Shown here: positions 32,894 through 61,883 of the stretch, one piece after another
Numbering within the stretch: position 1 is the first letter of the stretch
Layout of the letters: every line of letters starts with the position of its first letter
NCBI RefSeq assembly: GCF_016711335.1
Contig: NZ_JADJTF010000001.1
Location: 2,321,401 to 2,385,400, forward strand
Length of the DNA stretch: 64,000 nt
Reading direction: 5' to 3'
Source of the DNA: Thiofilum sp.
GTDB taxonomy: Bacteria > Pseudomonadota > Gammaproteobacteria > Thiotrichales > Thiotrichaceae
Made by a program: the position numbers and the translations under genes
Notes under the pieces: generated by a model
The model's input: the letters and a program-made list of their open reading frames with translations, nothing else
Told to the model about the DNA's origin: nothing
Databases searched by the model: none

Positions 32894-34285
32894 CTACCTG
32901 TCGTCGTCATCATGATGATGGTGATGGTTAGAGGCTAGTTGAGCGCGACTGGGTAATTTTAAAAATAGCCCCGCTAAAAAGGCTAAAAACATAGCGTTAG
33001 CAGGCGTATGAGAGGTGAATTCTAAAATAGCATGCAGCATGAATAACAAAATCCCAATACCCGCCGCCACTTTAATAATTCGCTCCCGATCCCAGCGAGT
33101 ACCCCACATAGCCACCCAGCCCATGATATACACCACTAAAGTGAGCAAGAGTAAGACAATACCCAAAGCACCTATCTCTAGAATTAGCTCCAGATAGTCA
33201 TTGTGAGCATGGTTAATAAAATGTAATTGTTCGACTGGCTGGAAACTACGATAAATTTCTTGGAAAGTACTAGGCCCCGATCCTACTGGAAAGAATTCTT
33301 TAATAGCCTTAATAGTAGTTGCAAACATGCGCCAGCGCTCATCTTCTGCGGGGCTAGCTACAATAAAACGATTTAGGACTGGAACTAGACCTATACTAGC
33401 TAATAAAGCTGATCCTAATCCCAAAATACTAGCCACTACTCCAAAAGTTTTGCGTCCCCCCATATGAGGTGCAAAGGTAGGTAGGGTAATTAGAAGAGCC
33501 AAAATAGTAAGTAGTACACCTGCACGAGAACGCGTAAATACCGCACCCACTAAAATAATTAGTAATAAAACTAAATAAAATAGGGTAGTGCTGATACGCC
33601 ATTCATGAGTTTCTCGATGTTCATGATCTCTAGTTTTAAGCCCAATACTATAAATTGTCAGCCCTATTGCGATGGGTAAGCAGATGACCAGAAAGGTAGC
33701 TAGATGATCACGGTTACGATAAGTACCTTGTGAGCTGCGGCCAGTATCGGCAGAGAGCCATTTCAATACCTCTGCATTAGGATTGGTATATTGCATAAGT
33801 GCAAGCACAGCTTGGAAGCTAGCTAGTACTAACAATAAGATAACTAAATAATAACGTTGTTTGGCATTTAAGGTAGTAGTAGCGACTACAATAGCTATTA
33901 AAGGGAGCATAGCTAAAAAAGCATGCACTGTTTTATAAGGTATAACACTAATAGCTAAATAAGGCTTAAGATTGGCTTGTTGAGTTAACCATTGTAATGA
34001 TGCTTGATAACGTTCTCTACCTGGTAGCTCTATCCACCACTCATAAGGCAGGGGAATTAAATACACCAAAGGTGTAATAAAAATTAAAAACAATAATAAT
34101 AGGCTTAGTTTACTAATATGAGTGCGCCAATTATTCGTCCAAAATACCAGTAGTAATAATATTAAAGCCGCCGCTTCTAGAATGAATAATGACTCTAAAG
34201 TGCGGCCACTATATAAAATAGGAATAGCTAAAAATAGTAAGGTGATAATACCGGTAGTTAGCCATTGGGTTTTAGTAACACTCAT
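32894..34285 (-). CDS. O-antigen ligase-family (Wzy_C) membrane protein with a C-terminal H5D4 tail
   Basis: About 12 TM helices and a large loop carrying Wzy_C-type conserved R/H residues. Ends ...ASNHHHHHDDDDR. Confidence 0.65.
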   Translation of the reverse strand: MSVTKTQWLTTGIITLLFLAIPILYSGRTLESLFILEAAALILLLLVFWTNNWRTHISKLSLLLLFLIFITPLVYLIPLPYEWWIELPGRERYQASLQWLTQQANLKPYLAISVIPYKTVHAFLAMLPLIAIVVATTTLNAKQRYYLVILLLVLASFQAVLALMQYTNPNAEVLKWLSADTGRSSQGTYRNRDHLATFLVICLPIAIGLTIYSIGLKTRDHEHRETHEWRISTTLFYLVLLLIILVGAVFTRSRAGVLLTILALLITLPTFAPHMGGRKTFGVVASILGLGSALLASIGLVPVLNRFIVASPAEDERWRMFATTIKAIKEFFPVGSGPSTFQEIYRSFQPVEQLHFINHAHNDYLELILEIGALGIVLLLLTLVVYIMGWVAMWGTRWDRERIIKVAAGIGILLFMLHAILEFTSHTPANAMFLAFLAGLFLKLPSRAQLASNHHHHHDDDDR

Positions 34286-35604
34286 TCTTGGGGAATTCCA
34301 TTAGCATCTATAGGCACTATACTTAAATCGTCGAACCAAAGAGTACCATTAAACGTCTGTTTATTAGCATAGGGGCTAGCTGCTTCTAAGCGAATCAGTT
34401 GAGCTTTACAGGTTTCCTCTTCAGGAACAGTAAACCTTATACTCAAAGTACTCCATGCAGTCCGATCTTTAAGTGGAGTACTTTCTCCTAGCAAAGTTTG
34501 TTTAGCGTCCATACAGCGAATACGCCAACTTAAGCCCTCAGCCGTATCAAGTTTATCTATTTTATAAGCGAGCTTCAGCTCATAAAGCTTAGGTTCTAAT
34601 ACTAAAAACTGACTAATATGTTGAAATTTTATCGGCTCTACCGAGTTGCGTAGATTAATCCTAAGGGCTTTGGAACCCTTCATACCCTGTGTAATATTAG
34701 GTTCTATAGTAAATAATTTATGTTTTACTATACGCCAGTAAAATCCCCCCTTGTTATAATTACTATCTTCAAATCCACCATCGTATATATTACCGCCTAG
34801 TTTTACCTGATAATTCACTAAACTTTCTGTCCAAGCGAGTTTTGCTTCAGGCCAAAAGCCGTCTTTTATTAGACGCTCTACATAAATACTTAATTCGCGT
34901 ACTGTCAAAGCACTGTCTGAGGTGCGTCGAGTTTCAAATAATAGATCTAATAAATCACCATGCTCTGGCGATTGAGCAACAAAAGCAAAAAAGCGCTCCC
35001 ACCAAGGTGGTGGCTGTTGTATAAATGGTAAAAGCAAATGTTGAGCATTAGGATCGGCTGCTATTTGGAGTAGCACGGGGAATAGTTTTTTAGACAGATT
35101 AGGATCGCGAATCAGTAAAATATTCCATTCTTGGAGTAGCTTTTCTAAATTATTGCGCCTAGTCCAATAATCCGCTAGGTAAGCACGGTTTTGTGGATGA
35201 GCAGGCCATAATGCTGAAGCTATATCGGCTAGTTGGCTAGCGGTATCCATATCTTGTAGCTTTTCATAAATCCCTAGTAATTGAGCAAATCCATTACCAA
35301 AAGTGATATCTTGCTCTAGGGCTTTTAGGGCAAGCGTTTTAGCCTGCACTAATTGCTCGTCATTGACCGTTTGATTAATGTCGCCACTATAAAAGGTACG
35401 TGACTGCTCCCATAACGCTTGGCTACGTTGTACTTGCCAAGACTCTATCGGAGGAAATAAACCTTCCATCCCTTTGAAATCGGTTTCAGTATAGTCTGGA
35501 TAAGTAAAATCATTAGGTCCTACCCCTCCTAGGCGATAGGTTAATATTAAGTAGCCTAGACCTAAAAGGATTGCAATGAGAAAACTACGCCACAGCCAAA
35601 TCAT
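34282..35604 (-). CDS. Membrane-anchored hypothetical protein (helical repeat region plus C-terminal beta-rich domain)
   Basis: N-terminal TM helix, TPR-like helical middle, C-terminal beta-rich segment. Its stop overlaps the Wzy_C start, so it is likely co-transcribed within the polysaccharide locus. Confidence 0.45.
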   Translation of the reverse strand: MIWLWRSFLIAILLGLGYLILTYRLGGVGPNDFTYPDYTETDFKGMEGLFPPIESWQVQRSQALWEQSRTFYSGDINQTVNDEQLVQAKTLALKALEQDITFGNGFAQLLGIYEKLQDMDTASQLADIASALWPAHPQNRAYLADYWTRRNNLEKLLQEWNILLIRDPNLSKKLFPVLLQIAADPNAQHLLLPFIQQPPPWWERFFAFVAQSPEHGDLLDLLFETRRTSDSALTVRELSIYVERLIKDGFWPEAKLAWTESLVNYQVKLGGNIYDGGFEDSNYNKGGFYWRIVKHKLFTIEPNITQGMKGSKALRINLRNSVEPIKFQHISQFLVLEPKLYELKLAYKIDKLDTAEGLSWRIRCMDAKQTLLGESTPLKDRTAWSTLSIRFTVPEEETCKAQLIRLEAASPYANKQTFNGTLWFDDLSIVPIDANGIPQE

Positions 35605-38600
35605 TAGGCATTACTCGGCAAACGTTTACGACTGCTCTTAGCACCATAACTGTAATAATAATCATAGTTATAACCGTAACTAGAGCCTGTTTTCATCTTA
35701 GTCATAATGACACCAATCAAATTAGCATTCGCCTGACGTAAACGCTGATACGCATCTTCCAATGGACGTTTTTTACTTTGCGCATGTGCGGCTACTAAGA
35801 TAGTAGCACTAGCTCGGTTGGCAATAATCAATGCATCCGCTAGACCCATAACAGGGGGGGAATCAATGATAATCATATCAAAGCGATTAGGGGCTAAAGC
35901 AAAGAGTTCATCCATACGTTCACTGGAAAGCAGTTCAGCAGGGTTCGGCGCAAGTGGTCCTGCAGTAATAGCAAAGACGCCTTTCATAGGAGTATCTTGA
36001 ATCACTTCTTCAATGGTAGCTTGATGAGTCAAATAAGTACTCATTCCAATGCTATTATCAAGGCTCAAGCGCTTATGTAGGGTGGGTTTACGTAAGTCAC
36101 AATCTACCACTAGGATTTGTTTACCAGATTGAGCAAACACTGCAGCTAAGTTAGTACAAGTACTGGATTTTGCTTCACTAGGCATCGAGCTAGTAATAGC
36201 TAAAGTCAGAGGTGCGCCATGACTCGTGGAAAATAATAGATTAGTTCTCAGCGAGCGGAATGCCTCAGCCATGGCAGAGGTAGGATCTTGATAGCTAATT
36301 AAAGCCACGTCTTTATCAGCATGATGCTTAATGAGTGGTGTAATGCCTAATAAAGGTAGTTTAACAACCTTTTCTAAATCATTGGTGGTTTTAACGCGAT
36401 CATCAAGAAACTCTAATAAGAACGCCAATACCGTACCTAAAAATAAACCTAGCACTAAACCTAAGGCTAAATTGAGTTTAGTATTAGGTTTATGCTTTGC
36501 AAAAGGTATCACTGCGGGGTCAACTACGGATATATTATTGGCCTTGATACCGCCTGCTACACCAATCTCTTTAATACGCTGTAATAAGGCGTCATATAAA
36601 TTACGGTTGGTTTCCACCTCACGTTTGAGAGTGTTATAGCCAACACTTTTATCATTAAGTTCGGTTAATTCAGCTTTTTGCTTTTCCAAGTCTGCTCTTA
36701 AAGCGGCTTCGCGTTGTTGTGCTGCCTTAAGGGCGGACTCTAATTCATCGGTGCTGGTTTGCGTAATTTTATTAGTTTCATCTTGAATTTGTGCCCGTAG
36801 TCTACCAATACGCTCTTCAAGGTTCTTTAAGGTGGTTTTGGTAATTGTGGAAGATTCTTGAGTAATCTGAGCGCGTAACTGATCAATGCGTTGAGTTAAA
36901 TTATTCACTGTACTTGATTGTACAGTACGCGTTTCAACGGCGATTTGTGCTTCTAACTCACTAATTCTTTGTCTTAGATTATTCAGTGTAGTATTACTGA
37001 CAGTTTGAGTTTCACGTAGAATCTGAGCCTCTAATTCGGCAATTAATTGTTTAAGATTATTAATATTATTACCTTTTACTGTCTGCGTTTCAGCAGTAAT
37101 TTGACTTCTGATAGTATCAATTTTTTGTTTTAATTGTACCATCGTGGGGTAAAGTGGCTTATAGACTTGTAGTTTTTCTTGATATTCGGCTTGTAAAGTT
37201 TGTAGTTGGCGTGTTAAAGCTTGAATAGTAGGATCGGTACTCTGTACCTTGGAGGCTTTAACTTCTGCTTGATAATCACTTTGTAGCTTAGTTAGTTGTT
37301 GGCGTAAGCTAGTCACTACCGGATTATCACGGGCAGTAGAGGCTTTTAATTGGGCTTGATACTCACCTTGTAGCTTAGTTAATTCTTGGCGTAACCCACG
37401 TACCACTGCATTATCACGTGCCGAAGGAACACTTCTTTCAGCAATATAATCGCCCTCCAGTTTAGCTAATTCTTTGCGCAGGTTTTTAACCACTTCGTTA
37501 TCATAGGCAGTGGGAGCGGTTAGTTCAGCTTGATATTGGGTTTCTGCTTGAGCTAACTGTTTTTTAAGCTCTTGGATGGTAGAGTTACTGAGTGTTTTGC
37601 TCGCACCACTACTAGCACGAGTTTTTTCGTATTGACTTTCTGCCTTAATACGCTCGCTTTGAGCGTCTGATAAAGTCTTGGTTAAGTTTAATAGTGTTTG
37701 ACCTACTAAAGTTTGCTTATTTTCTGGGTCGACACTAATAATGCCTTTTTCTTTAGTAAAATCAACCAGTTTGCGCTCAGACTCATCTAGCTTACTTTTT
37801 GCCTTGATTAGTTCCGTATTTAAAAAGCCTTCTGCATAACTAGCCGCTTCACGCCGCCGCTCTAAATTCATTTGAATGAAGTTTTCGGTTAGCGTATTGG
37901 CAATACTAGCGGCTTTGACAGGATCAATATGGTCGTAGGAAACGGTGACAATTTGTGAGTTTTTGACAGGCGATACCGTTAAGCCTGCTAGAAACTTGTT
38001 CTCTAGAGGCGGTGCACCCAATTTTTTTGCTAACTCTTCAGGATTAGGCTTAGTGTTGGGTATAACAATATTGTTATTAGTTTCATCGACAATCTCAGTA
38101 TCACTGTTCTCAGAAACCGTATTGGTAGTACCACCGAATAGAGCTTTGACTTCATCTAGGGTTTCTGCAAAGAAAGGTTTAGCTAATTGTTCACCTGTTA
38201 AGTCACTTTCTAAGTTTAACGTATCAATAGTACGTCTAGCTAAGTTACGGCTTTGCAATAACTCATATTGAGTTTGATAAAAATCTTTATCATTGACACG
38301 AGTATCTTGTGCTTCAACACCGAACTCTAATAATTTACCGGAAGTCTCTGGCTGAATTTGCAGAGTGGCACTGGCTCGATAAATAGGCGTCATCATTAAA
38401 GTGGCAATAAGTGCTACCATAAACACTAGAGCAGCTATGGATATAATTAAGCCTTTACGTCTAACAATGACTTGCCACAATTCACGTAAATCAATTTCAT
38501 CATCCGCTTCATCATTACTAGGCTCTTGATAAGAGGCCGTAATGACTTGTTGGTTAGCTTGGGAGGGAAAAGCTTGGCGTCGCCCATACTCTGGCGCATT

Positions 38601-38615
38601 TAACTCGGCATTCAT
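35604..38615 (-). CDS. Polysaccharide co-polymerase / tyrosine autokinase (Wzc-like), 1003 aa with an expanded repeat coiled coil
   Basis: N-terminal Wzz-type TM region, very long periplasmic coiled coil with two families of tandem repeats, second TM, then C-terminal BY-kinase domain (Walker A TSSMPSEAKSST, DCDLRKP) and Tyr-rich tail SSYGYNYDYYYSYG. Confidence 0.8.
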   Translation of the reverse strand: MNAELNAPEYGRRQAFPSQANQQVITASYQEPSNDEADDEIDLRELWQVIVRRKGLIISIAALVFMVALIATLMMTPIYRASATLQIQPETSGKLLEFGVEAQDTRVNDKDFYQTQYELLQSRNLARRTIDTLNLESDLTGEQLAKPFFAETLDEVKALFGGTTNTVSENSDTEIVDETNNNIVIPNTKPNPEELAKKLGAPPLENKFLAGLTVSPVKNSQIVTVSYDHIDPVKAASIANTLTENFIQMNLERRREAASYAEGFLNTELIKAKSKLDESERKLVDFTKEKGIISVDPENKQTLVGQTLLNLTKTLSDAQSERIKAESQYEKTRASSGASKTLSNSTIQELKKQLAQAETQYQAELTAPTAYDNEVVKNLRKELAKLEGDYIAERSVPSARDNAVVRGLRQELTKLQGEYQAQLKASTARDNPVVTSLRQQLTKLQSDYQAEVKASKVQSTDPTIQALTRQLQTLQAEYQEKLQVYKPLYPTMVQLKQKIDTIRSQITAETQTVKGNNINNLKQLIAELEAQILRETQTVSNTTLNNLRQRISELEAQIAVETRTVQSSTVNNLTQRIDQLRAQITQESSTITKTTLKNLEERIGRLRAQIQDETNKITQTSTDELESALKAAQQREAALRADLEKQKAELTELNDKSVGYNTLKREVETNRNLYDALLQRIKEIGVAGGIKANNISVVDPAVIPFAKHKPNTKLNLALGLVLGLFLGTVLAFLLEFLDDRVKTTNDLEKVVKLPLLGITPLIKHHADKDVALISYQDPTSAMAEAFRSLRTNLLFSTSHGAPLTLAITSSMPSEAKSSTCTNLAAVFAQSGKQILVVDCDLRKPTLHKRLSLDNSIGMSTYLTHQATIEEVIQDTPMKGVFAITAGPLAPNPAELLSSERMDELFALAPNRFDMIIIDSPPVMGLADALIIANRASATILVAAHAQSKKRPLEDAYQRLRQANANLIGVIMTKMKTGSSYGYNYDYYYSYGAKSSRKRLPSNA

Positions 38616-38633: not shown

Positions 38634-39368
38634 TTAGTTAATTAATGTATTGAGGGCATTAATAGGGCTGATAAATGATGCAGCCTCTTTGATCCAATAA
38701 CGGCTATCAGAACGATGTACTACAATCCTATCATCATTTTGTAAATAAGGATCATTAAGCTGACCATTGCGAATCGCAGTAAGGTTGAGGCGGTAAGCTT
38801 TCACTTTATTATTAGGTAGGGTACGAAATAGTATCACTTTATCTTTAGAGGCTAAGGTAGTGGGGCCACCTGCTTGTGCAATAGCTTGCATTACGGTCAT
38901 AGCGCCTTCAATAGCATATACATTGGGCTTGGTGACCTCACCTTCAACAGTCACGCGCTGATTAGCTGCTTCTTTAACCAAAACGGTAATTTTGGGATTA
39001 TTTAAGCCTTCGGGATGATTGGAGTAGGCTTGCTCGAGCGCACGAGCTAATTCTTGCTGAGTCAAACCTTGGGCTTTGATTTCTTTAATGATTTGTAAAG
39101 CAATATAGCCACGCGAGTCGACTCTTACCTCTTGGTTTAAGCCTTCAGCAGGGAAGATTGTAATGGCTAATAAATCTGAGGCTCCAATCCGATATTCAGT
39201 TTGAGGAGGAACATAGCTCAACTCATTAATATTGGAAAAAATTTGGTTTCCATTATTCGTCGCAGGACCTGATGTAACAGGAAGACCACCACCTGTGCTA
39301 CAGCCTGCTAGGGCTAGACAGCATACAATAGATGTGAGATTTAGTTTTAGTTTGTTCATCATATCCAA
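38634..39368 (-). CDS. Polysaccharide export lipoprotein (Wza-like, Poly_export plus SLBB)
   Basis: Lipobox LALAGCS. Poly_export motif YRIGASDLLAITIF. A second SLBB-like domain follows. Confidence 0.75.
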   Translation of the reverse strand: MDMMNKLKLNLTSIVCCLALAGCSTGGGLPVTSGPATNNGNQIFSNINELSYVPPQTEYRIGASDLLAITIFPAEGLNQEVRVDSRGYIALQIIKEIKAQGLTQQELARALEQAYSNHPEGLNNPKITVLVKEAANQRVTVEGEVTKPNVYAIEGAMTVMQAIAQAGGPTTLASKDKVILFRTLPNNKVKAYRLNLTAIRNGQLNDPYLQNDDRIVVHRSDSRYWIKEAASFISPINALNTLIN

Positions 39369-39391: not shown

Positions 39392-40225
39392 TTAATGGCG
39401 ACCAAAAAGACGCTGCAAGAAAGTTTTAGACTTAGGACTGTCATTGGCAGCAGGTCGCAAAGGCGTTTTCAGTGGGTCGATGCGTAGGGCAGGTATTGTA
39501 GGTACTGAGCTAGGCGCAAGGTTATCCACGATGGCCAAAGGGCGCTCCCACACGCAATAATGGGCTTCTTGTTCACCTACAAGCAATGCAGCAGCTTTAA
39601 TGCCTTCAGATAAAATAGGCGGACGACGTTCTACTCCATGCGCATCGGTCGCTATTATATGCACATAACCGTCTTGTAGGAATTGTTCCGCATATTTTTT
39701 AGCACTGCGTCCAAATTGTCCCGTAATAGCACCCGCTGTAATTTGAATCCAAGCCCCCATACGAGCCGCATCAGTAAACTGCTGGTAGTGCTCGCCTACC
39801 CAAGTTAAACGTTCGGGGTGAGTAATCAGTGGAACATATCCCGCATTTAAAAAATTTTCTACTTGTCCCAGAAAATCATTAACCGGAACATGATGTGAAG
39901 GCTCTAGGAGAAAATAGCGTGAATGATTAAGCGTTGGAATACGCCCCGTTTTTAACCCCCGCATAACATCCGGGACCATATGGGTATCTGCACCAATCAA
40001 TAACTTGAGTGGGATTTGAGCAAGATCTAACTGAGTTTGTAATGCATCCAGAGCCGGTGCAATCGTATTTGCACTATTTTCGTATAATCCCGGATAGATA
40101 TGAGGCGTACAGGCTAAATGCGTAATACCGTCTGCAACTGCCATACGCGCCATGGTCAGTGAGGTTTCTAGATCCTGCGACCCATCACATAGGGCGGGGA
40201 GTATGTGGCTATGTAAATCAATCAT
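39392..40225 (-). CDS. PHP-family protein-tyrosine phosphatase (CpsB/YwqE-like)
   Basis: ATG at 40225: MIDLHSHILPALCDG, then HLACTPH, ADTHM, ATDAHG metal-binding motifs. Cognate phosphatase of the BY-kinase. Confidence 0.7.
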   Translation of the reverse strand: MIDLHSHILPALCDGSQDLETSLTMARMAVADGITHLACTPHIYPGLYENSANTIAPALDALQTQLDLAQIPLKLLIGADTHMVPDVMRGLKTGRIPTLNHSRYFLLEPSHHVPVNDFLGQVENFLNAGYVPLITHPERLTWVGEHYQQFTDAARMGAWIQITAGAITGQFGRSAKKYAEQFLQDGYVHIIATDAHGVERRPPILSEGIKAAALLVGEQEAHYCVWERPLAIVDNLAPSSVPTIPALRIDPLKTPLRPAANDSPKSKTFLQRLFGRH

Positions 40226-40483
40226 ATAAGATTTTTGTAACACCAATTGGGGAAGCAAACCTTAGGCTAGTATAGCGCAACTTCTGTGTGAAGCGTTATA
40301 AATCTTATTTGGGTTTGAATTTAAAGTTAATGTCGATATTTTACTTGGCTTTGTAATAAGTAATTAATTTTATTATAATTTTAAAGAGTGGGTACAGTGT
40401 TTAGTATTTGTTAGAGGGTAGACACTTAGGTCTACCCCTACATTTTGTTGTTAAATATAACTACAGAGTTGAATTTAACAACT

Positions 40484-41144: not shown

Positions 41145-41744
41145 CTACTTAAAATCAACGTCTTCATAAAAATCGGTAATTGGGCAGCATAAGCCTACAC
41201 AGGTGAGTTCTACGTTGCTATTCTCGCCTGCAAAGCTAAATAGTTCCCATCGGTGGTTTTCGTTGAGGCGAAAAACTTGTACAAGGTATTGCGTAGGGTC
41301 AATTAACACATATTCACGCAGACTGGTTAGCTGGCGATAGGCATCAAATTTACCACCTTTGTCATAGTCTTTGGTACTTTCCGAGAGTACTTCAATCACT
41401 AGAATAGGTGCATATTTAGTGGTGTTGTGCTCGCGGTCATTGGGGTTGCAGGTGACCATGACATCAGGGTAGAAATAGGCTTTATCGTTGGCGTCGATTT
41501 TGAGGCGCATATCAGACATGTAAAGGCTACAGCCTGAGCCGCGAAGATGTGTTTTTAGTGCGTAGTGTACATTGCCTGTCACTTTAACATGCGCATCGGT
41601 AGCCCCCGCCATATTGGTGATAGGATTCCAATGTAAAGGGTAGACAAAGCCATTCAGGTACTCGTGTTTCTCGGTGGCAACTGTTTCAGTAGCTAAGTAA
41701 TCAGCTTCGGTGATAACAGGCTGTTCAGCGAGGTTGCGACTCAT
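41145..41744 (-). CDS. Uma2-family (DUF820) putative PD-(D/E)XK endonuclease, copy 1
   Basis: 199-aa ORF: EYLNGFVYPL ... YPDVMVTC ... ILVIEVLSESTKDYDKGGKFDAYRQLTSLREYVLID are the Uma2 family motifs. Confidence 0.75.
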   Translation of the reverse strand: MSRNLAEQPVITEADYLATETVATEKHEYLNGFVYPLHWNPITNMAGATDAHVKVTGNVHYALKTHLRGSGCSLYMSDMRLKIDANDKAYFYPDVMVTCNPNDREHNTTKYAPILVIEVLSESTKDYDKGGKFDAYRQLTSLREYVLIDPTQYLVQVFRLNENHRWELFSFAGENSNVELTCVGLCCPITDFYEDVDFK

Positions 41745-44364: not shown

Positions 44365-44970
44365 TTATCCGTTTTTTTGCATGGGGAATGGAACATCTAA
44401 CCCGACTTCACGCCTGACTCTGCGGTAGATATGGTGTACGGCTATTTCTAAACCAACCGATTCCAGCATTAGGGTGTCTTCGGCGTAATAGGATTCTAAT
44501 TGCCAATGGGTGCGGCGGCGGTAAACCCGTAGATAGGGCGTTTCTTGCGAAACCACGACGTATTCCAGCAGGGTAGGAATTTGGGTGTAATTATCGAATT
44601 TTTCTTTGAGGTCAACCCGCTTGGTTGAGCCAGATAGCACTTCGACAATCAGTATGGGGTTAGTGCGGTAATACGGGTCGTCAGTATTTTCACCACAAGC
44701 TGCCATGATGTCAGGGTAATAGGAAAACGGTTTGTTGTCGCGGGTTTTTCCAATCACTTTCATGTCAGATTGCCAGACGCGACAGGTGTCTTTCAGGGCA
44801 TTATCGATAGCAGAACCAAGTGTATGAGCGATGGTGTTATGGGTTTCACTAGCGCCTGCCATGGCGTAGATTTCACCCTCCACGTATTCGCTGCGGGTAT
44901 CTACGTCGCGTTCGCCTTCCAGATAGTCATCGAAGGGGATGTAAGTTTGTTTTAAAGCTTGCATTACCAT
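44365..44970 (-). CDS. Uma2-family (DUF820) putative endonuclease, copy 2
   Basis: EYVEGEIYAM ... YPDIMAACG ... ILIVEVLSGSTKRVDLKEKFDNYTQIPTLLEYVVV, paralogous to 41145..41744. Confidence 0.75.
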   Translation of the reverse strand: MVMQALKQTYIPFDDYLEGERDVDTRSEYVEGEIYAMAGASETHNTIAHTLGSAIDNALKDTCRVWQSDMKVIGKTRDNKPFSYYPDIMAACGENTDDPYYRTNPILIVEVLSGSTKRVDLKEKFDNYTQIPTLLEYVVVSQETPYLRVYRRRTHWQLESYYAEDTLMLESVGLEIAVHHIYRRVRREVGLDVPFPMQKNG

Positions 44971-54693: not shown

Positions 54694-55974
54694 TTAACGG
54701 AAAAATGAATGCAGATGAGAGGTAGATTTTTTGAGGTTAGTATATTTTATTAGCACATTTCGATTTTGTTTTTCATGTAATACACAAGTGATATTAAGTA
54801 GGACAATGATTGACATCAATTGATACCCTGAAAAAATATTATTTGTCGTCATGGTTACACAAGAAAAAATAATAAAAATGAACAGTGTTATGCCCCACTG
54901 GGATGAAATATTACGCATTGCAAGGCGTAAAAGATAAATTATATAAAATCCAAATAGAAAAATACCTAAAATTCCATACCTTTGAATTATCAAAGCGTAT
55001 TCAGAGTCTATAACAGTTGAAAATTCAGACTTGGCTGGTCCCATACCAAATAATGGTGATTCATAAAAACGTTCTATGGCTAAGGAGAAATTATCTAATC
55101 TAATGTTCAAACTTTCATTTTCCCCCTCAGATGTTAGTTGAGCACCCAAATAAATATACTGTAGCTCCAATGAAAATACTAAGAAAATGATTGAGGTAAT
55201 GAGTAATGTAAGTAAAATAATTTTAATTATGAAATTTAATTTATAGAAGAATAAAAAATAGAAACTGAATGTTGATAGAAATGCACCCAAAATGGTTCTA
55301 CTTTGAGTTGACAATATCAAAAAGGAAAATAGCAATGCAAAAATTAAGTATTTATATGTTTTTTCTTTTAAAAATAATGTGGTAAAGTAAATACTAAAAA
55401 AGCTAGCAATGACTGCGCCGATATTAGGATCAGAGCCAGTAATGGTTATTCGATATCCAGCAAGAGCAGATGCCAAATGTGAACTATCCGCACCTAAGTA
55501 TTTCTTCAGGAGCCATTCCGCAAGGAAAGGTATATTTAGAACTTGAATGTAGCCGATCAATAAAACAAGTATGGCAGACCAAAATAGTAATTTATGGAGA
55601 TGTGATAAGCTCGCTATTCCAATAAAAGTTATAGCCATCATGTAAGGTACAAACTGTAAGTATTTTATTGACTCAATAATATCCCCAGAAACAGGCGATG
55701 AATAACCAGCCGCCCAAGAAAATAAAGCAGAAATCATAACCATTAACCCTAATGCTAATGGCATAAGTGATGCAGTATTAAAAAAAGATTTCTTTGATAA
55801 ATGTAATAAAATTATTAAGAAAACTATGGGGCTTATGAGTGTGACGAGATAAATATGTATATCACCAAAGGCTATGGAGGGTAATGTAATTGAGGATAGT
55901 AGCCCTAAAAATAGTAAATTAACCATTAATTTATTTGGCCGAGTTGTTTTCTTGATATTTTTATCGTACTGCAT
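54694..55974 (-). CDS. O-antigen polymerase (Wzy-like) multi-TM protein
   Basis: 426-aa, very AT-rich, 10-12 TM helices with a large periplasmic loop. Located between wecB and wzx. Confidence 0.5.
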   Translation of the reverse strand: MQYDKNIKKTTRPNKLMVNLLFLGLLSSITLPSIAFGDIHIYLVTLISPIVFLIILLHLSKKSFFNTASLMPLALGLMVMISALFSWAAGYSSPVSGDIIESIKYLQFVPYMMAITFIGIASLSHLHKLLFWSAILVLLIGYIQVLNIPFLAEWLLKKYLGADSSHLASALAGYRITITGSDPNIGAVIASFFSIYFTTLFLKEKTYKYLIFALLFSFLILSTQSRTILGAFLSTFSFYFLFFYKLNFIIKIILLTLLITSIIFLVFSLELQYIYLGAQLTSEGENESLNIRLDNFSLAIERFYESPLFGMGPAKSEFSTVIDSEYALIIQRYGILGIFLFGFYIIYLLRLAMRNISSQWGITLFIFIIFSCVTMTTNNIFSGYQLMSIIVLLNITCVLHEKQNRNVLIKYTNLKKSTSHLHSFFR

Positions 55975-60305: not shown

Positions 60306-61883
60306 TTATTTGCTCAAGATTATCTGTACATAATCCTGTTGAATGGCTGTCAAATCCGCCCCCATCGGCAAACTCATCACACGCTGCGCTCTATCCTTCG
60401 CAATCGGCGTACAATCCCCACAACACAAATCCCGATAAGCAGGCTGTTCATTCAAAGGCACAGGATAATGCACCGCTGTTGGAATCCCAGCTTCCCTAAA
60501 CCGCGCTTCCACCTCACTGCGGTTTTCCACCAACACCGTATACTGCGCAAACACACTCGTCCGATCATCCCGCTGCTGTATTCGCTGCACCCCAGCCTCA
60601 TCCATTAAGGCATTATACCGCTGCCCAATGACAACCCGCTGCTCCACTTCCCAATCAAACCGTTCCAGCTTCGCCAGCACCACCGCACATTGCAGCGTAT
60701 CCATCCGCCCACCCACACCCACACGGGTATGGTAATAACGCCGACTCTGCCCATGAATCCGAATCTCCCGACAAGCCTGATAAATGGCATCATCATCGGT
60801 AAAAATCGCCCCACCATCCCCATAACAACCCAAGGGCTTACTCGGAAAAAAACTAGTACAACCAATCGTAGAAAGATGACAACTCTTCCTACCCTTATAC
60901 GTCGCCCCGAAACTCTGCGCTGCATCCTCAATCACTGGCAAATTATACTTCGCCGCAATCGCATTAATCTCATCCATATCCGCAGGTTGACCATACAAAC
61001 TCACTGGCATAATCGCCTTAGTCCGTTCAGTAATTTTAGCCTCAATCAAACCCGCATCCATATTACAAGTATCTGGCTCAATATCCACAAACACCGGCTT
61101 TGCACCCAACAACACAATCACCTCAGCCGTCGCCACAAAGGTAAACGGCGTGGTAATCACCTCATCCCCCGCACCAATCCCCAATGCCATCAAGCTGATC
61201 AACAAGGCTTCCGTGCCACTGGCCACCGTAATGCAATGCTTCGCACCCGTATAAGCGGCGAGCTTCTTTTCCAGTAGTTCCACTTCTGGCCCCATGATAT
61301 ACGTGCCATGTTGCAAAACCGCATGAATATTACGCTGTAATTGCGGACGGATGGCACGTTGCTGGACAGCCAAATCAATAAACGGCATCTTTTCTGGCTT
61401 TTTTGACCATGCTGCCAAACCTTGCTCCAGTAACTCTTTCGGATGCAAGGCAAGTATCTTTGAGGATTTCAAAAACCACTTATCACGGGTGATAATGACC
61501 GGGTTAGGCAAATACTGCTCTGCCAGAAAACCAATTAACTGATCTTCCAGATCATCCCCGACCTCAGCATCCAGCGTAGCCAACTCATCCCCCACTTGTG
61601 GCAGTGGCTTGAGCAAGCTACTCAATTCTTGTAACAAGACACGAGCCGCCTGAATCGATTCACGCCGATTCTGAGCATCTTTTGCCAAGGCACGCTCAAG
61701 CAAGTAATACACCGTACTCAAGGTATGGGGTGCATACCAAGCCTCTACTTCACCATTACGTACCAACTCCAGCACGCTCACCGCATCTGCGTAATAAGCC
61801 CCGCGTGCAGCCAAAGCATCAACCAAGACATTGGTATCAAAAACGAGCTGTATTTGAGTGTGTTTATAGCTATTAACGACCAA
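60306..61883 (-). CDS. In-frame fusion ORF: N-terminal PIN-domain (VapC-like) plus C-terminal WbpE-like UDP-2-acetamido-2-deoxy-3-oxo-D-glucuronate aminotransferase
   Basis: N-terminus LVFDTNVLVDAL...LEDQLIGFLAEQ...ITRDKWFLK (four PIN acidic positions). From MPFIDLAVQQRAI onward near-colinear with WbpE (LQHGTYIMGPEVELLEKKLAAYTGAKHC ... DAAQSFGATYKGRKSC ... FFPSKPLGCYGDGGAIFT). The junction contains a T6 run (61399-61404); one extra base would create a stop just after the WbpE ATG. Confidence 0.6.
   Translation of the reverse strand: MVVNSYKHTQIQLVFDTNVLVDALAARGAYYADAVSVLELVRNGEVEAWYAPHTLSTVYYLLERALAKDAQNRRESIQAARVLLQELSSLLKPLPQVGDELATLDAEVGDDLEDQLIGFLAEQYLPNPVIITRDKWFLKSSKILALHPKELLEQGLAAWSKKPEKMPFIDLAVQQRAIRPQLQRNIHAVLQHGTYIMGPEVELLEKKLAAYTGAKHCITVASGTEALLISLMALGIGAGDEVITTPFTFVATAEVIVLLGAKPVFVDIEPDTCNMDAGLIEAKITERTKAIMPVSLYGQPADMDEINAIAAKYNLPVIEDAAQSFGATYKGRKSCHLSTIGCTSFFPSKPLGCYGDGGAIFTDDDAIYQACREIRIHGQSRRYYHTRVGVGGRMDTLQCAVVLAKLERFDWEVEQRVVIGQRYNALMDEAGVQRIQQRDDRTSVFAQYTVLVENRSEVEARFREAGIPTAVHYPVPLNEQPAYRDLCCGDCTPIAKDRAQRVMSLPMGADLTAIQQDYVQIILSK

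What the first reader, a model, noticed from the sequence alone, without database searches (positions are those of the whole stretch)
36740..37550. Wzc-like co-polymerase lengthened to 1003 aa by two families of in-frame tandem repeats in its periplasmic coiled coil
The periplasmic domain contains about 4-5 copies of an approximately 26-aa unit (ARDNxVVxxLRQELTKLQxEYQAxLKAS) and about 4 copies of an approximately 24-aa unit (TVxNxTxNNLxQRIxELEAQIxxETxT). At the DNA level the nearly identical ttgtagcttagtta(g/a)ttgttggcgtaa stretches recur. BY-kinase co-polymerases are usually about 720-750 aa. Repeat expansion of the coiled coil could change the periplasm-spanning length and hence polymer chain length, and would be prone to slippage (phase variation of modal length).
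Basis: seen in the sequence. Interest (0 to 1): 0.5.

Follow-up and report, generated by a model that had tools for sequence, protein, structure and literature searches.

The report
Wzc-like co-polymerase with a modularly lengthened arm
A polysaccharide-export regulator from a filamentous sulfur bacterium (Thiofilum) carries a periplasmic helical arm about three times the usual length, built by adding the same number of repeat modules to both strands of a helical hairpin; relatives carry 0 to 5 such module pairs, which gives a natural length series for testing how these machines span the cell envelope or set polymer length.

Summary
Gene 35604-38615 (-) encodes a 1003-aa Wzc-type (PCP-2a) tyrosine autokinase. 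It holds two in-frame repeat arrays: five A units (true period 29 aa, aa 343-485) and five B units (period 26 aa, aa 486-613). The arrays meet at a conserved YKPxYP turn.

The repeats are not slippage-prone. Only one unit pair keeps DNA similarity (78%), and the longest exact DNA repeat is 14 nt. The units are 1:1 orthologous with Thiofilum flexile, and proteins at 90% identity or more have the same length.

In 120 homologues, the ascending and descending arm lengths fall into six matched classes: n0 (~760 aa, 100 proteins) up to n5 (1053 aa). No protein has unmatched arms, despite at least 7-8 independent copy-number changes.

AlphaFold2 predicts a long antiparallel hairpin, with a segmented A strand and one 158-residue B helix. 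The turn matches the spacing of the E. coli Wzc residues that dock Wza.

I read this as a modular extension of the Wzc "helical arm", about 3.5-4 nm per module pair and under purifying selection. Its effect on envelope spanning or chain length is inferred, not shown. It is a new variant of a known kind.

The parts
35604..38615 (-). PCP-2a / BY-kinase gene, 1003 aa (identical to Thiofilum sp. MAG protein P0001)
   Evidence: the AlphaFold2 model's best PDB matches are E. coli Wzc chains (E 5e-26)
38217..38501 (-). Wzz N-terminal domain including TM1 (aa 39-133)
   Evidence: Pfam PF02706, 54.5 bits; AF2 helix 54-74
37590..37709 (-). ascending helix of the upper arm (aa 303-342), preceded by a low-confidence hinge at 290-308
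   Evidence: AF2 helix 303-334; pLDDT below 50 at 290-308
37161..37589 (-). A array, the ascending strand of the forearm. Five units: aa 343-368, 369-397, 398-426, 427-455, 456-485. Period 29 aa. Each unit is one ~21-residue helix plus a DNxVV-type break.
   Evidence: AF2 helices 345-366, 374-395, 403-424, 432-453, 462-482; dN 0.024 against T. flexile, the most conserved segment of the protein
37146..37166 (-). hairpin turn V484-Y-K-P-L-Y-P490 (family motif [YF]K[PA]x[YF]P); putative OPX-docking tip
   Evidence: P490 is invariant; K486, P487 and Y489 are at least 90% conserved in 104 sequences; same Y-x3-[HY]-P spacing as E. coli K30 Y336...H340-P341; the K-12 equivalents L333/Y334/T335 contact Wza (PMC13469938)
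36777..37160 (-). B array, the descending strand of the forearm. Five units: aa 486-509, 510-535, 536-561, 562-587, 588-613. Period 26 aa. Same 3-4-3-4 hydrophobic spacing as the A units.
   Evidence: AF2 predicts one continuous helix 489-646
36678..36776 (-). descending helix of the upper arm (aa 614-646), followed by a low-confidence hinge at 646-658
36405..36629 (-). GNVR region and TM2 (aa 663-737)
   Evidence: Pfam PF13807, 55.2 bits; AF2 helix 712-737
35643..36266 (-). cytoplasmic tyrosine autokinase domain (aa 784-991): Walker A (A815-K-S-S), Walker A' (ILVVDCDLR, 834), Walker B (MIIIDSPP, 914), Tyr cluster YGYNYDYYYSY (980-990)
   Evidence: TIGR01007, 179.9 bits against a cut-off of 108; motifs
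38634..39368 (-). OPX partner, a 244-aa lipoprotein (LAGC lipobox). It has Poly_export plus a single SLBB domain and no Wza_C helix, which is the Class-3 OPX architecture.
39392..40258 (-). CpsB/CapC-type PHP tyrosine phosphatase
   Evidence: PF19567, E 5.9e-53
34282..35604 (-). conserved 440-aa protein of unknown family that follows the PCP in all related loci examined
   Evidence: no Pfam hit; homologues in L001, L004, L008, L009, L010
32894..34285 (-). Wzy_C (O-antigen ligase/polymerase-like) membrane protein, the last gene of the export module
   Evidence: PF04932

Best explanation
The gene encodes a Wzc-type polysaccharide co-polymerase / tyrosine autokinase. Its periplasmic "helical arm" (Wzc motif 3) is an antiparallel helical hairpin.

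In this protein the distal part of the hairpin has four extra modules on each strand. The A units form the ascending strand: short helices joined by DNxVV breaks. The B units form the descending strand: one long helix. The conserved YKPxYP turn between them is the tip that, by homology with E. coli Wzc, docks on the Poly_export domain of the outer-membrane export protein.

Each module pair should add about 33-39 Å. The arm would then be about 150 Å longer than in the ~760-aa relatives.

Both strands must stay in register, so only equal copy numbers survive. That gives a quantised family with 0 to 5 extra module pairs.

The array is old, is kept by purifying selection, and is not a phase-variation device.

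The consequence is inferred: a taller or larger periplasmic chamber and conduit between the inner membrane and a short (Class-3) OPX. This could change how the machine bridges the envelope, how long a polymer it accommodates, or both.
For: Shown here:
1. Family assignment and an operon of phosphatase, OPX, PCP, a 440-aa protein and Wzy_C inside a Wzx/Wzy locus.
2. Two repeat arrays that flank the turn.
3. Matched arm lengths. They were measured between invariant anchors R322, P490 and E636 in 120 homologues. The classes are (50-54, 38-42), (79-82, 60-68), (109, 94), (137-138, 120), (166-168, 142-146) and (195, 168). r = 0.996 and no protein is unmatched. P0121 also has five extra modules on each strand, although its B period is 22 aa.
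4. Fitch parsimony on trees built from non-arm columns gives at least 7-8 copy-number changes, stable over 10 resamples.
5. AF2 full-length (pLDDT 77) and arm-only (pLDDT 90) models both give a segmented ascending strand and one 158-170-residue descending helix. The best PDB matches of the arm model are antiparallel intramolecular coiled coils: MukB elbow, Rad50, SMC and chemoreceptors.
6. The A and B units share the same 3-4-3-4 hydrophobic spacing.
7. The turn motif is near-invariant. It has the spacing of E. coli LYTKEHP, whose L333/Y334/T335 contact Wza and whose Y334A and T335A mutants lose Wza binding (PMC13469938).
8. Purifying selection against T. flexile, with dS saturated: dN is 0.024 for the A array, 0.11 for the B array, 0.10 for the kinase and 0.21 for the periplasmic base.

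From the literature: Wzc motif 3 is the arm that extends to Wza D1 (PMC8285477, PMC12881504). Class-3 OPX proteins project only ~62 Å and need an extended PCP (PMC12819527).
Against: - The hairpin geometry rests on AF2 monomer models, and I could not inspect their coordinates. Foldseek TM-scores to known hairpins are low (0.2-0.3).
- E. coli motif 3 can also fold down into a four-helix bundle, so a long arm need not be upright.
- If fully extended, the arm (about 110 + 150 Å) plus a ~60 Å OPX would exceed a typical ~210 Å periplasm.
- OPX length and architecture are the same in n0, n2, n3 and n4 loci, so no partner visibly compensates.
- The sample of long-arm proteins is small: 20 clusters plus P0121, all from Thiotrichaceae-like lineages.
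- The tip homology with E. coli is by motif spacing. HMMER's own alignment in that region is offset.
Confidence: 0.7

Rival explanations
1. The repeats are a contingency locus: slipped-strand mispairing or unequal recombination changes copy number often, which gives phase variation of polymer modal length.
For: The repeats are in frame, and copy number does differ between species. One unit pair (A2/A3) keeps 78% DNA identity and a 27-nt stretch with 2 mismatches.
Against: - The longest exact repeat is 14 nt.
- Third-position identity between units is 0.23-0.50 against a random expectation of 0.29, except A2/A3 at 0.66.
- Units are orthologous 1:1 with T. flexile.
- There are no 26-29-aa length steps within ten 90%-identity clusters.
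- A single slip would unbalance the arms, and no unbalanced protein is seen.
Confidence: 0.03
2. The extra modules do not lengthen the reach. The segmented A strand lets the arm fold back on itself, as in the E. coli class i four-helix bundle. The expansion would then enlarge a lid, cage wall or glycan-binding surface rather than the height of the complex.
For: - The A units are separated by Pro/Gly/Asn breaks.
- E. coli motif 3 is seen folded down as well as upright (PMC8285477, PMC12881504).
- A fully extended arm looks too long for an ordinary periplasm.
- The A array is the most conserved segment, which suggests a binding surface.
Against: - The B strand has almost no helix breakers (only G515 and G604).
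- AF2 predicts it as one helix in both models.
- A zig-zag packing would allow unequal A and B counts as long as the total is even, yet only equal counts occur.
Confidence: 0.2
3. The expansion is a neutral, tolerated insertion in a flexible region, with no functional consequence.
For: It is a rare and patchy variant: about 21 clusters among 5.8 billion proteins. The operon context is the same as in n0 relatives.
Against: - The arrays are more conserved than the protein average although synonymous divergence is saturated.
- Unit sequences stay alike while their codons have randomised.
- Matched counts are maintained through at least 7-8 changes.
Confidence: 0.05

Closest known systems
E. coli Wzc (PCP-2a BY-kinase; PDB 7NHR, 9R62-9R6B), in particular its motif 3 / helical arm
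   Same: - Same domain order: TM1, periplasmic base, helical hairpin arm, TM2, P-loop tyrosine autokinase, Tyr-rich tail.
- Same gene partners: an OPX and a phosphatase.
- The same Y-x3-[HY]-P motif at the hairpin turn, which in E. coli contacts Wza D1.
- Foldseek E 5e-26.
   Different: - The arm is 344 aa (303-646) against 135 aa in E. coli, and the extra length is made of repeated modules.
- Only ~18% identity. The score is far below the NCBIfam Wzc equivalog cut-off (242 against 1068 bits).
- The partner OPX is a short Class-3 type, and the phosphatase is the PHP (CpsB) type rather than Wzb.
- Walker A has Ala in place of the Gly before the Lys.
Normal-length Thiotrichaceae orthologues (for example Thiothrix fructosivorans, P0051, 761 aa, locus L004)
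   Same: Same operon: CpsB, OPX, PCP, a ~440-aa protein, Wzy_C. They are 52-65% identical outside the arm and have the same tip motif.
   Different: They have one A-type and one B-type helix. The query has five of each.
Myxococcus xanthus WzcB-WzaB-WzpB (Class-3 OPX system; the 'Snap-Flex Funnel' model, PMC12819527)
   Same: A PCP-2a paired with a short lipoprotein OPX that lacks the outer-membrane helix. That model needs an extended PCP arm to reach the OPX, and it proposes that cavity size limits polymer length.
   Different: No repeat-built arm is described there. No porin partner was identified in this window.
Alpha-helical hairpins of periplasmic adaptor proteins (AcrA/MacA/EmrA/HlyD family)
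   Same: Works alike. It is an antiparallel coiled-coil hairpin that bridges to an outer-membrane partner by its tip. Its length is changed in evolution by adding or removing repeats in both helices (PMC4446572).
   Different: Unrelated protein family: no lipoyl or beta-barrel domains and no HlyD-type Pfam hit. The units here are 26-29 aa modules rather than single heptads.
PCP-1 Wzz / FepE chain-length regulators
   Same: They share the Wzz fold at the membrane-proximal base. Their periplasmic helical extension is thought to influence polymer modal length.
   Different: They have no kinase and no OPX partner. Their helical barrel is arranged differently from Wzc motif 3 (PMC8285477).

Membership tests
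PCP-2a / BY-kinase (Wzc-like) | Two transmembrane helices flanking a large periplasmic domain with a Wzz N-terminal region and a GNVR region | tested here: met
   PF02706 54.5 bits and PF13807 55.2 bits, both above their cut-offs; AF2 helices 54-74 and 712-737
PCP-2a / BY-kinase (Wzc-like) | C-terminal cytoplasmic P-loop kinase domain with Walker A, A' and B motifs | tested here: met
   TIGR01007 179.9 bits against a cut-off of 108; A815-K-S-S, ILVVDCDLR and MIIIDSPP. Walker A has Ala where Gly is usual.
PCP-2a / BY-kinase (Wzc-like) | C-terminal tyrosine cluster | tested here: met
   YGYNYDYYYSY at aa 980-990
PCP-2a / BY-kinase (Wzc-like) | Overall fold like solved Wzc | tested here: met
   Foldseek against PDB: 9exq_A, 9r64_I and 7nhr_A at E about 1e-25. 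Global TM-scores are low because of the long arm.
PCP-2a / BY-kinase (Wzc-like) | Encoded next to an OPX and a cognate phosphatase in a Wzx/Wzy locus | tested here: met
PCP-2a / BY-kinase (Wzc-like) | Tyrosine autophosphorylation and octamer formation | not testable with these tools
   needs biochemistry
E. coli Wzc orthologue (NCBIfam NF008568 equivalog) | Score above the curated equivalog cut-off | tested here: not met
   242 bits against a cut-off of 1068. It is a family member, not an orthologue of E. coli Wzc.
Wzc helical arm with OPX-docking tip | Antiparallel helical hairpin between the periplasmic base and TM2 | tested here: met
   AF2 secondary structure; hairpin-type PDB matches; matched arm lengths. 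This is model-based, not experimental.
Wzc helical arm with OPX-docking tip | Conserved turn residues that contact the OPX Poly_export domain | tested here: inconclusive
   The Y485...Y489-P490 motif has the spacing of E. coli Y336...H340-P341. Contact with the 244-aa OPX was not tested.
Contingency (phase-variable) tandem repeats | Long, near-identical DNA repeats that can serve as a slippage substrate | tested here: not met
   The longest exact repeat is 14 nt. Unit DNA identity is 32-62%, except for one pair at 77-78%.
Contingency (phase-variable) tandem repeats | Copy-number differences among close strains | tested here: not met
   Members of ten 90%-identity clusters differ by at most 5 aa. 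T. flexile has the same unit count. The sample is small.
Periplasmic adaptor proteins (MFP/HlyD family) | Lipoyl and beta-barrel domains flanking the hairpin | tested here: not met
   No such Pfam or NCBIfam hits. The resemblance is an analogy only.

The most novel reading that the evidence does not exclude
The number of module pairs in the PCP forearm is a genetically encoded ruler. Each matched A/B pair would add about 3.5-4 nm to the periplasmic conduit or chamber. The natural n0-n5 series in Thiotrichaceae would then tune either polysaccharide modal length (a cavity-size model) or the distance bridged to a short Class-3 OPX. Evolution would have to proceed by compensatory duplication on both strands of the hairpin.
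Probability: 0.3. Interest if true: 0.75.

Novelty: new variant of a known kind. Interest (0 to 1): 0.55.

Why it matters
Cryo-EM structures from 2021-2026 showed that the Wzc helical arm swings up to dock the outer-membrane exporter. Current models also propose that the size of the co-polymerase cavity limits polymer length. Both ideas lack a clean length variable to test them.

This family offers one. Orthologous export modules have the same partners, the same tip motif and the same kinase, but their arms differ in discrete steps of one module pair, from 0 to 5.

Three kinds of experiment become possible:
- Swapping or deleting matched pairs, with unmatched deletions as a control.
- Measuring chain length.
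- Imaging the envelope.

These would test directly whether arm length sets polymer length, envelope spanning, or neither. The strict matching of the two arrays is also a clear case of structural coupling that constrains repeat evolution.

Tried and rejected
- **OPX compensation.** I asked whether a shorter OPX goes with a longer arm. It does not. The OPX is a 237-261-aa lipoprotein, colinear in n0, n2, n3 and n4 loci.
- **Unit protein identity as a clock.** The most similar A pair and the most similar B pair in each protein have correlated identity (r = 0.72) and roughly mirrored positions. I first read this as coupled recent duplication. The DNA shows otherwise. In L010, an 18/20-identical A pair has 61% DNA identity and 31% third-position identity. 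In the window, only A2/A3 keeps a synonymous signal. So the similarity reflects constraint, not recency.
- **Arm-only phmmer search of the 5.8-billion-protein set.** It returned nothing, not even the query itself, probably because of compositional filtering.
- **Arm-only search of the 1.84 billion representatives.** It found only two full-arm relatives, P0015 and P0121. The other hits cover only the tip region or are unrelated helical repeats, for example P0137.
- **Profile search built from long-arm proteins.** It added no new long-arm clusters.
- **The 740-aa gene of the n2/n3 loci.** It has no homologue in the window.
- **A second PCP gene.** There is none in the window.
- **Literature.** Searches found no description of repeat-lengthened PCP arms. 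Absence from the held library is not proof of novelty.
- **dS against T. flexile.** It is saturated, so no dN/dS ratio could be given for the A array.
Full report
**What is there**

The finding lies inside one ORF, window 35604..38615 on the minus strand, 1003 aa. Pfam finds a Wzz N-terminal domain (aa 39-133), a GNVR region (663-733) and a P-loop NTPase domain (815-942). NCBIfam places it in the polysaccharide tyrosine autokinase family: TIGR01007 scores 179.9 bits against a cut-off of 108. It is far below the equivalog cut-offs for E. coli Wzc or Etk.

Walker A, A' and B motifs and a C-terminal tyrosine cluster (YGYNYDYYYSY) are present. The protein is identical to a "Thiofilum sp." MAG protein and 82% identical to that of Thiofilum flexile DSM 14609.

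The gene sits in an export module, all on the minus strand:
- CpsB-type phosphatase, 39392..40258
- 244-aa OPX lipoprotein with Poly_export plus one SLBB domain, 38634..39368
- the PCP itself
- a 440-aa protein with no Pfam hit, 34282..35604
- a Wzy_C protein, 32894..34285

This module lies at the end of a Wzx/Wzy-type polysaccharide locus that runs to about 63.8 kb.

**Checking the observation**

Internal periodicity is far beyond chance. The best 22-residue self-diagonal BLOSUM62 scores are 80 at offset 29 and 71 at offset 26, with multiples at 58, 52, 78 and 87. The maximum over 30 shuffles was 42. TRF reports an 87-nt period at 37252-37418. The repeat finder reports three 78-nt spaced copies.

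Cut by hand, and confirmed by unit HMMs, the region contains:
- five A units: aa 343-368, 369-397, 398-426, 427-455, 456-485 (period 29)
- the turn K486-P-L-Y-P490
- five B units: aa 486-509, 510-535, 536-561, 562-587, 588-613 (period 26)

The DNA motif it quoted occurs only twice, in A2 and A3.

**Is it an expansion?**

Yes. Of the 120 best homologues, 100 are 746-782 aa. Twenty are longer: 803-829, 884-889, 925-931, 985-1007 and 1053 aa. Two partial proteins also have long arms.

In the alignment, the normal-length proteins read ...STIQELKKNLAKLQGDYQEKLQIYKPGYPLMVQLQNQISELQTQINQE... That is one A-type helix, the turn, and one B-type helix. The query's extra units appear as two blocks of insertion, one on each side of the turn.

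**The pairing rule**

I measured the ascending arm (invariant R322 to invariant P490) and the descending arm (P490 to E636) in all 120 proteins. They fall into six classes:

| Class | Ascending arm (aa) | Descending arm (aa) | Proteins |
|---|---|---|---|
| n0 | 50-54 | 38-42 | 100 |
| n1 | 79-82 | 60-68 | 5 |
| n2 | 109 | 94 | 2 |
| n3 | 137-138 | 120 | 4 |
| n4 | 166-168 | 142-146 | 7 (includes the query) |
| n5 | 195 | 168 | 2 |

The correlation is r = 0.996, and no protein has unequal module numbers.

A further 1003-aa protein, P0121, has five extra modules on each side even though its B period is 22 aa. So the quantity conserved is the module count, not the residue count.

On neighbour-joining trees built from non-arm columns, the long-arm proteins lie in at least three groups, with mixed copy numbers inside the groups. 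Fitch parsimony needs 7-8 copy-number changes, and this is stable over ten column resamples. A profile built from the long-arm proteins recovers no further long-arm clusters among 5.8 billion proteins. The variant is therefore rare, and the sample is close to what is available.

**Structure**

AlphaFold2 on the full protein used 104-sequence alignment A2 and gave mean pLDDT 77. It predicts helices 345-366, 374-395, 403-424, 432-453 and 462-482, one per A unit. These are followed by a single helix 489-646. Low-confidence hinges lie at 290-308 and 646-658.

The arm alone (aa 296-660, alignment A3) gives mean pLDDT 90 with the same pattern.

The best PDB matches differ by model:
- Full model: E. 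coli Wzc chains, E about 1e-25.
- Arm model: long intramolecular antiparallel coiled coils such as the MukB elbow, Rad50, SMC arms and chemoreceptor hairpins. TM-scores are low, as expected for long rods.

The A and B units have the same 3-4-3-4 hydrophobic spacing. The B strand has almost no helix breakers.

I could not read the model coordinates. The hairpin is therefore supported by secondary structure, by the type of fold matches, and most strongly by the matched counts. It is not supported by measured contacts.

**Link to known structures**

In E. coli, Wzc motif 3 (residues 268-402) is a dynamic helical arm that is required for capsule production (PMC8285477). In Wza-Wzc complexes it stands upright, the periplasmic part reaches about 110 Å, and its forearm contacts Wza D1 (PMC12881504; PMC13469938). 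The contacting residues in K-12 are L333, Y334 and T335. The Y334A and T335A mutants lose Wza in pull-downs.

The K30 sequence printed reads ...QL335-Y336-T337-K-E-H340-P341..., which is the K-12 numbering plus 2. The query reads V484-Y485-K486-P-L-Y489-P490, with the same Y-x3-[HY]-P spacing. K486, P487, Y489 and P490 are at least 90% conserved or invariant in 104 family members. I therefore take the turn to be the OPX-docking tip. This is an inference, and HMMER's own alignment of this low-similarity region is offset.

By my estimate, the n0 arms are 66/52 residues, counted from the hinge at ~303 to the hinge at ~646. That is close to the 68/61 of E. coli. The query's arms are 182/156.

At 1.5 Å per residue, the four extra B units (104 residues) add about 150 Å.

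The partner OPX has the short Class-3 architecture. In Myxococcus such an OPX projects about 62 Å and is proposed to need an extended PCP arm (PMC12819527).

**Age and selection**

The array is old.
- Units are orthologous 1:1 between the window and T. flexile. Orthologous units are 0.71-0.83 identical in DNA; paralogous units are 0.44-0.77.
- Third-position identity between units is 0.23-0.50 against a random 0.29. The exception is A2/A3 at 0.66.
- In another n4 gene (L010), an A pair that is 18/20 identical in protein has 61% DNA identity and 31% third-position identity.

Unit sequences are therefore held by selection. Against T. flexile, with dS saturated, dN is 0.024 for the A array (96% amino-acid identity, the best-conserved part of the protein), 0.11 for the B array, 0.10 for the kinase and 0.21 for the periplasmic base.

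Full-length members of ten 90%-identity clusters differ by at most 5 aa. Together with a longest exact repeat of 14 nt, this rules out the phase-variation idea as far as the data reach.

**What it probably does**

My best reading has three parts.
- The forearm of the Wzc-type helical arm is a modular antiparallel hairpin.
- Its length is set by the number of matched A/B modules.
- The conserved tip keeps its docking role while the spacer varies.

What the extra ~15 nm achieves is open. The OPX does not co-vary. An upright arm of ~260 Å plus an OPX of ~60 Å exceeds the ~210 Å bridged by the E. coli complex. So one of three things must hold: the arms are tilted or partly folded, the envelope is wider in these filamentous sulfur bacteria, or the selected property is chamber size, and hence polymer length as in the cavity-size models. 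I cannot discriminate between these with the tools available.

**Comparison and novelty**

The protein is a member of the PCP-2a / BY-kinase family. All sequence-testable defining features are met, but it is not an orthologue of E. coli Wzc.

[quoted passage not shown] That family is unrelated.

I found no description of repeat-built, length-quantised PCP arms in the held literature. I rate it a new variant of a known kind.

It has moderate-to-good interest. It arrives just as the arm's docking role has been solved structurally, and it supplies a natural length series for experiments.

Noticed in passing
window 34282-35604 (-); also L001 8994-10313, L004 8160-9587, L008 9961-11277, L009 10124-11368, L010 10411-11676: A ~415-475-aa protein with no Pfam domain follows the PCP, directly or after one gene, and precedes a Wzy_C gene in every related export module examined. 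The window protein and the L008 protein are 41% identical. It is a conserved partner of unknown function.
   Followed up: partly
L008 7749-9971 and L009 7856-10090: The n2 and n3 loci carry an extra 740-744-aa gene without Pfam hits between the PCP and the ~440-aa gene. tblastn finds no homologue in the window. It could be the missing outer-membrane partner of a Class-3 OPX, or something else.
   Followed up: partly
window 38634-39368 (-): The OPX is a short lipoprotein (LAGC lipobox, Poly_export plus one SLBB, no Wza_C helix), which is the Class-3 architecture. No beta-barrel porin partner was identified in the window.
   Followed up: partly
window 36171-36182 (-), aa 812-815 of the PCP: The Walker A motif reads S-E-A-K-S-S, with Ala815 where P-loops normally have Gly. 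The same is true in P0002, P0003, P0005, P0016 and P0019. P0009, P0013, P0051 and P0056 have Gly.
   Followed up: no
window 37161-37589 (-): The A array is the most conserved segment of the whole protein against T. flexile: 96% amino-acid identity and dN 0.024, compared with dN 0.10 for the kinase domain. This hints that the ascending strand is an interaction surface and not just a spacer.
   Followed up: partly
window 41145-41744 (-) and 44365-44970 (-); L010 421-1026: Uma2-family (putative restriction endonuclease-like) genes sit inside or beside the polysaccharide locus, both in the window and in an unrelated long-arm locus.
   Followed up: no
window 60306-61883 (-): One 525-aa ORF combines a PIN_3 domain (aa 13-117) with a DegT/DnrJ aminotransferase (aa 179-519). 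It is either a real fusion or an over-extended ORF call.
   Followed up: no
window 32894-32935 (-): The Wzy_C protein ends in a natural His/Asp run, ...SNHHHHHDDDDR.
   Followed up: no
window 54694-55974 (-) and 32894-34285 (-): The locus has two Wzy_C-family genes: one next to the Wzx flippase, and one at the end of the export module.
   Followed up: no
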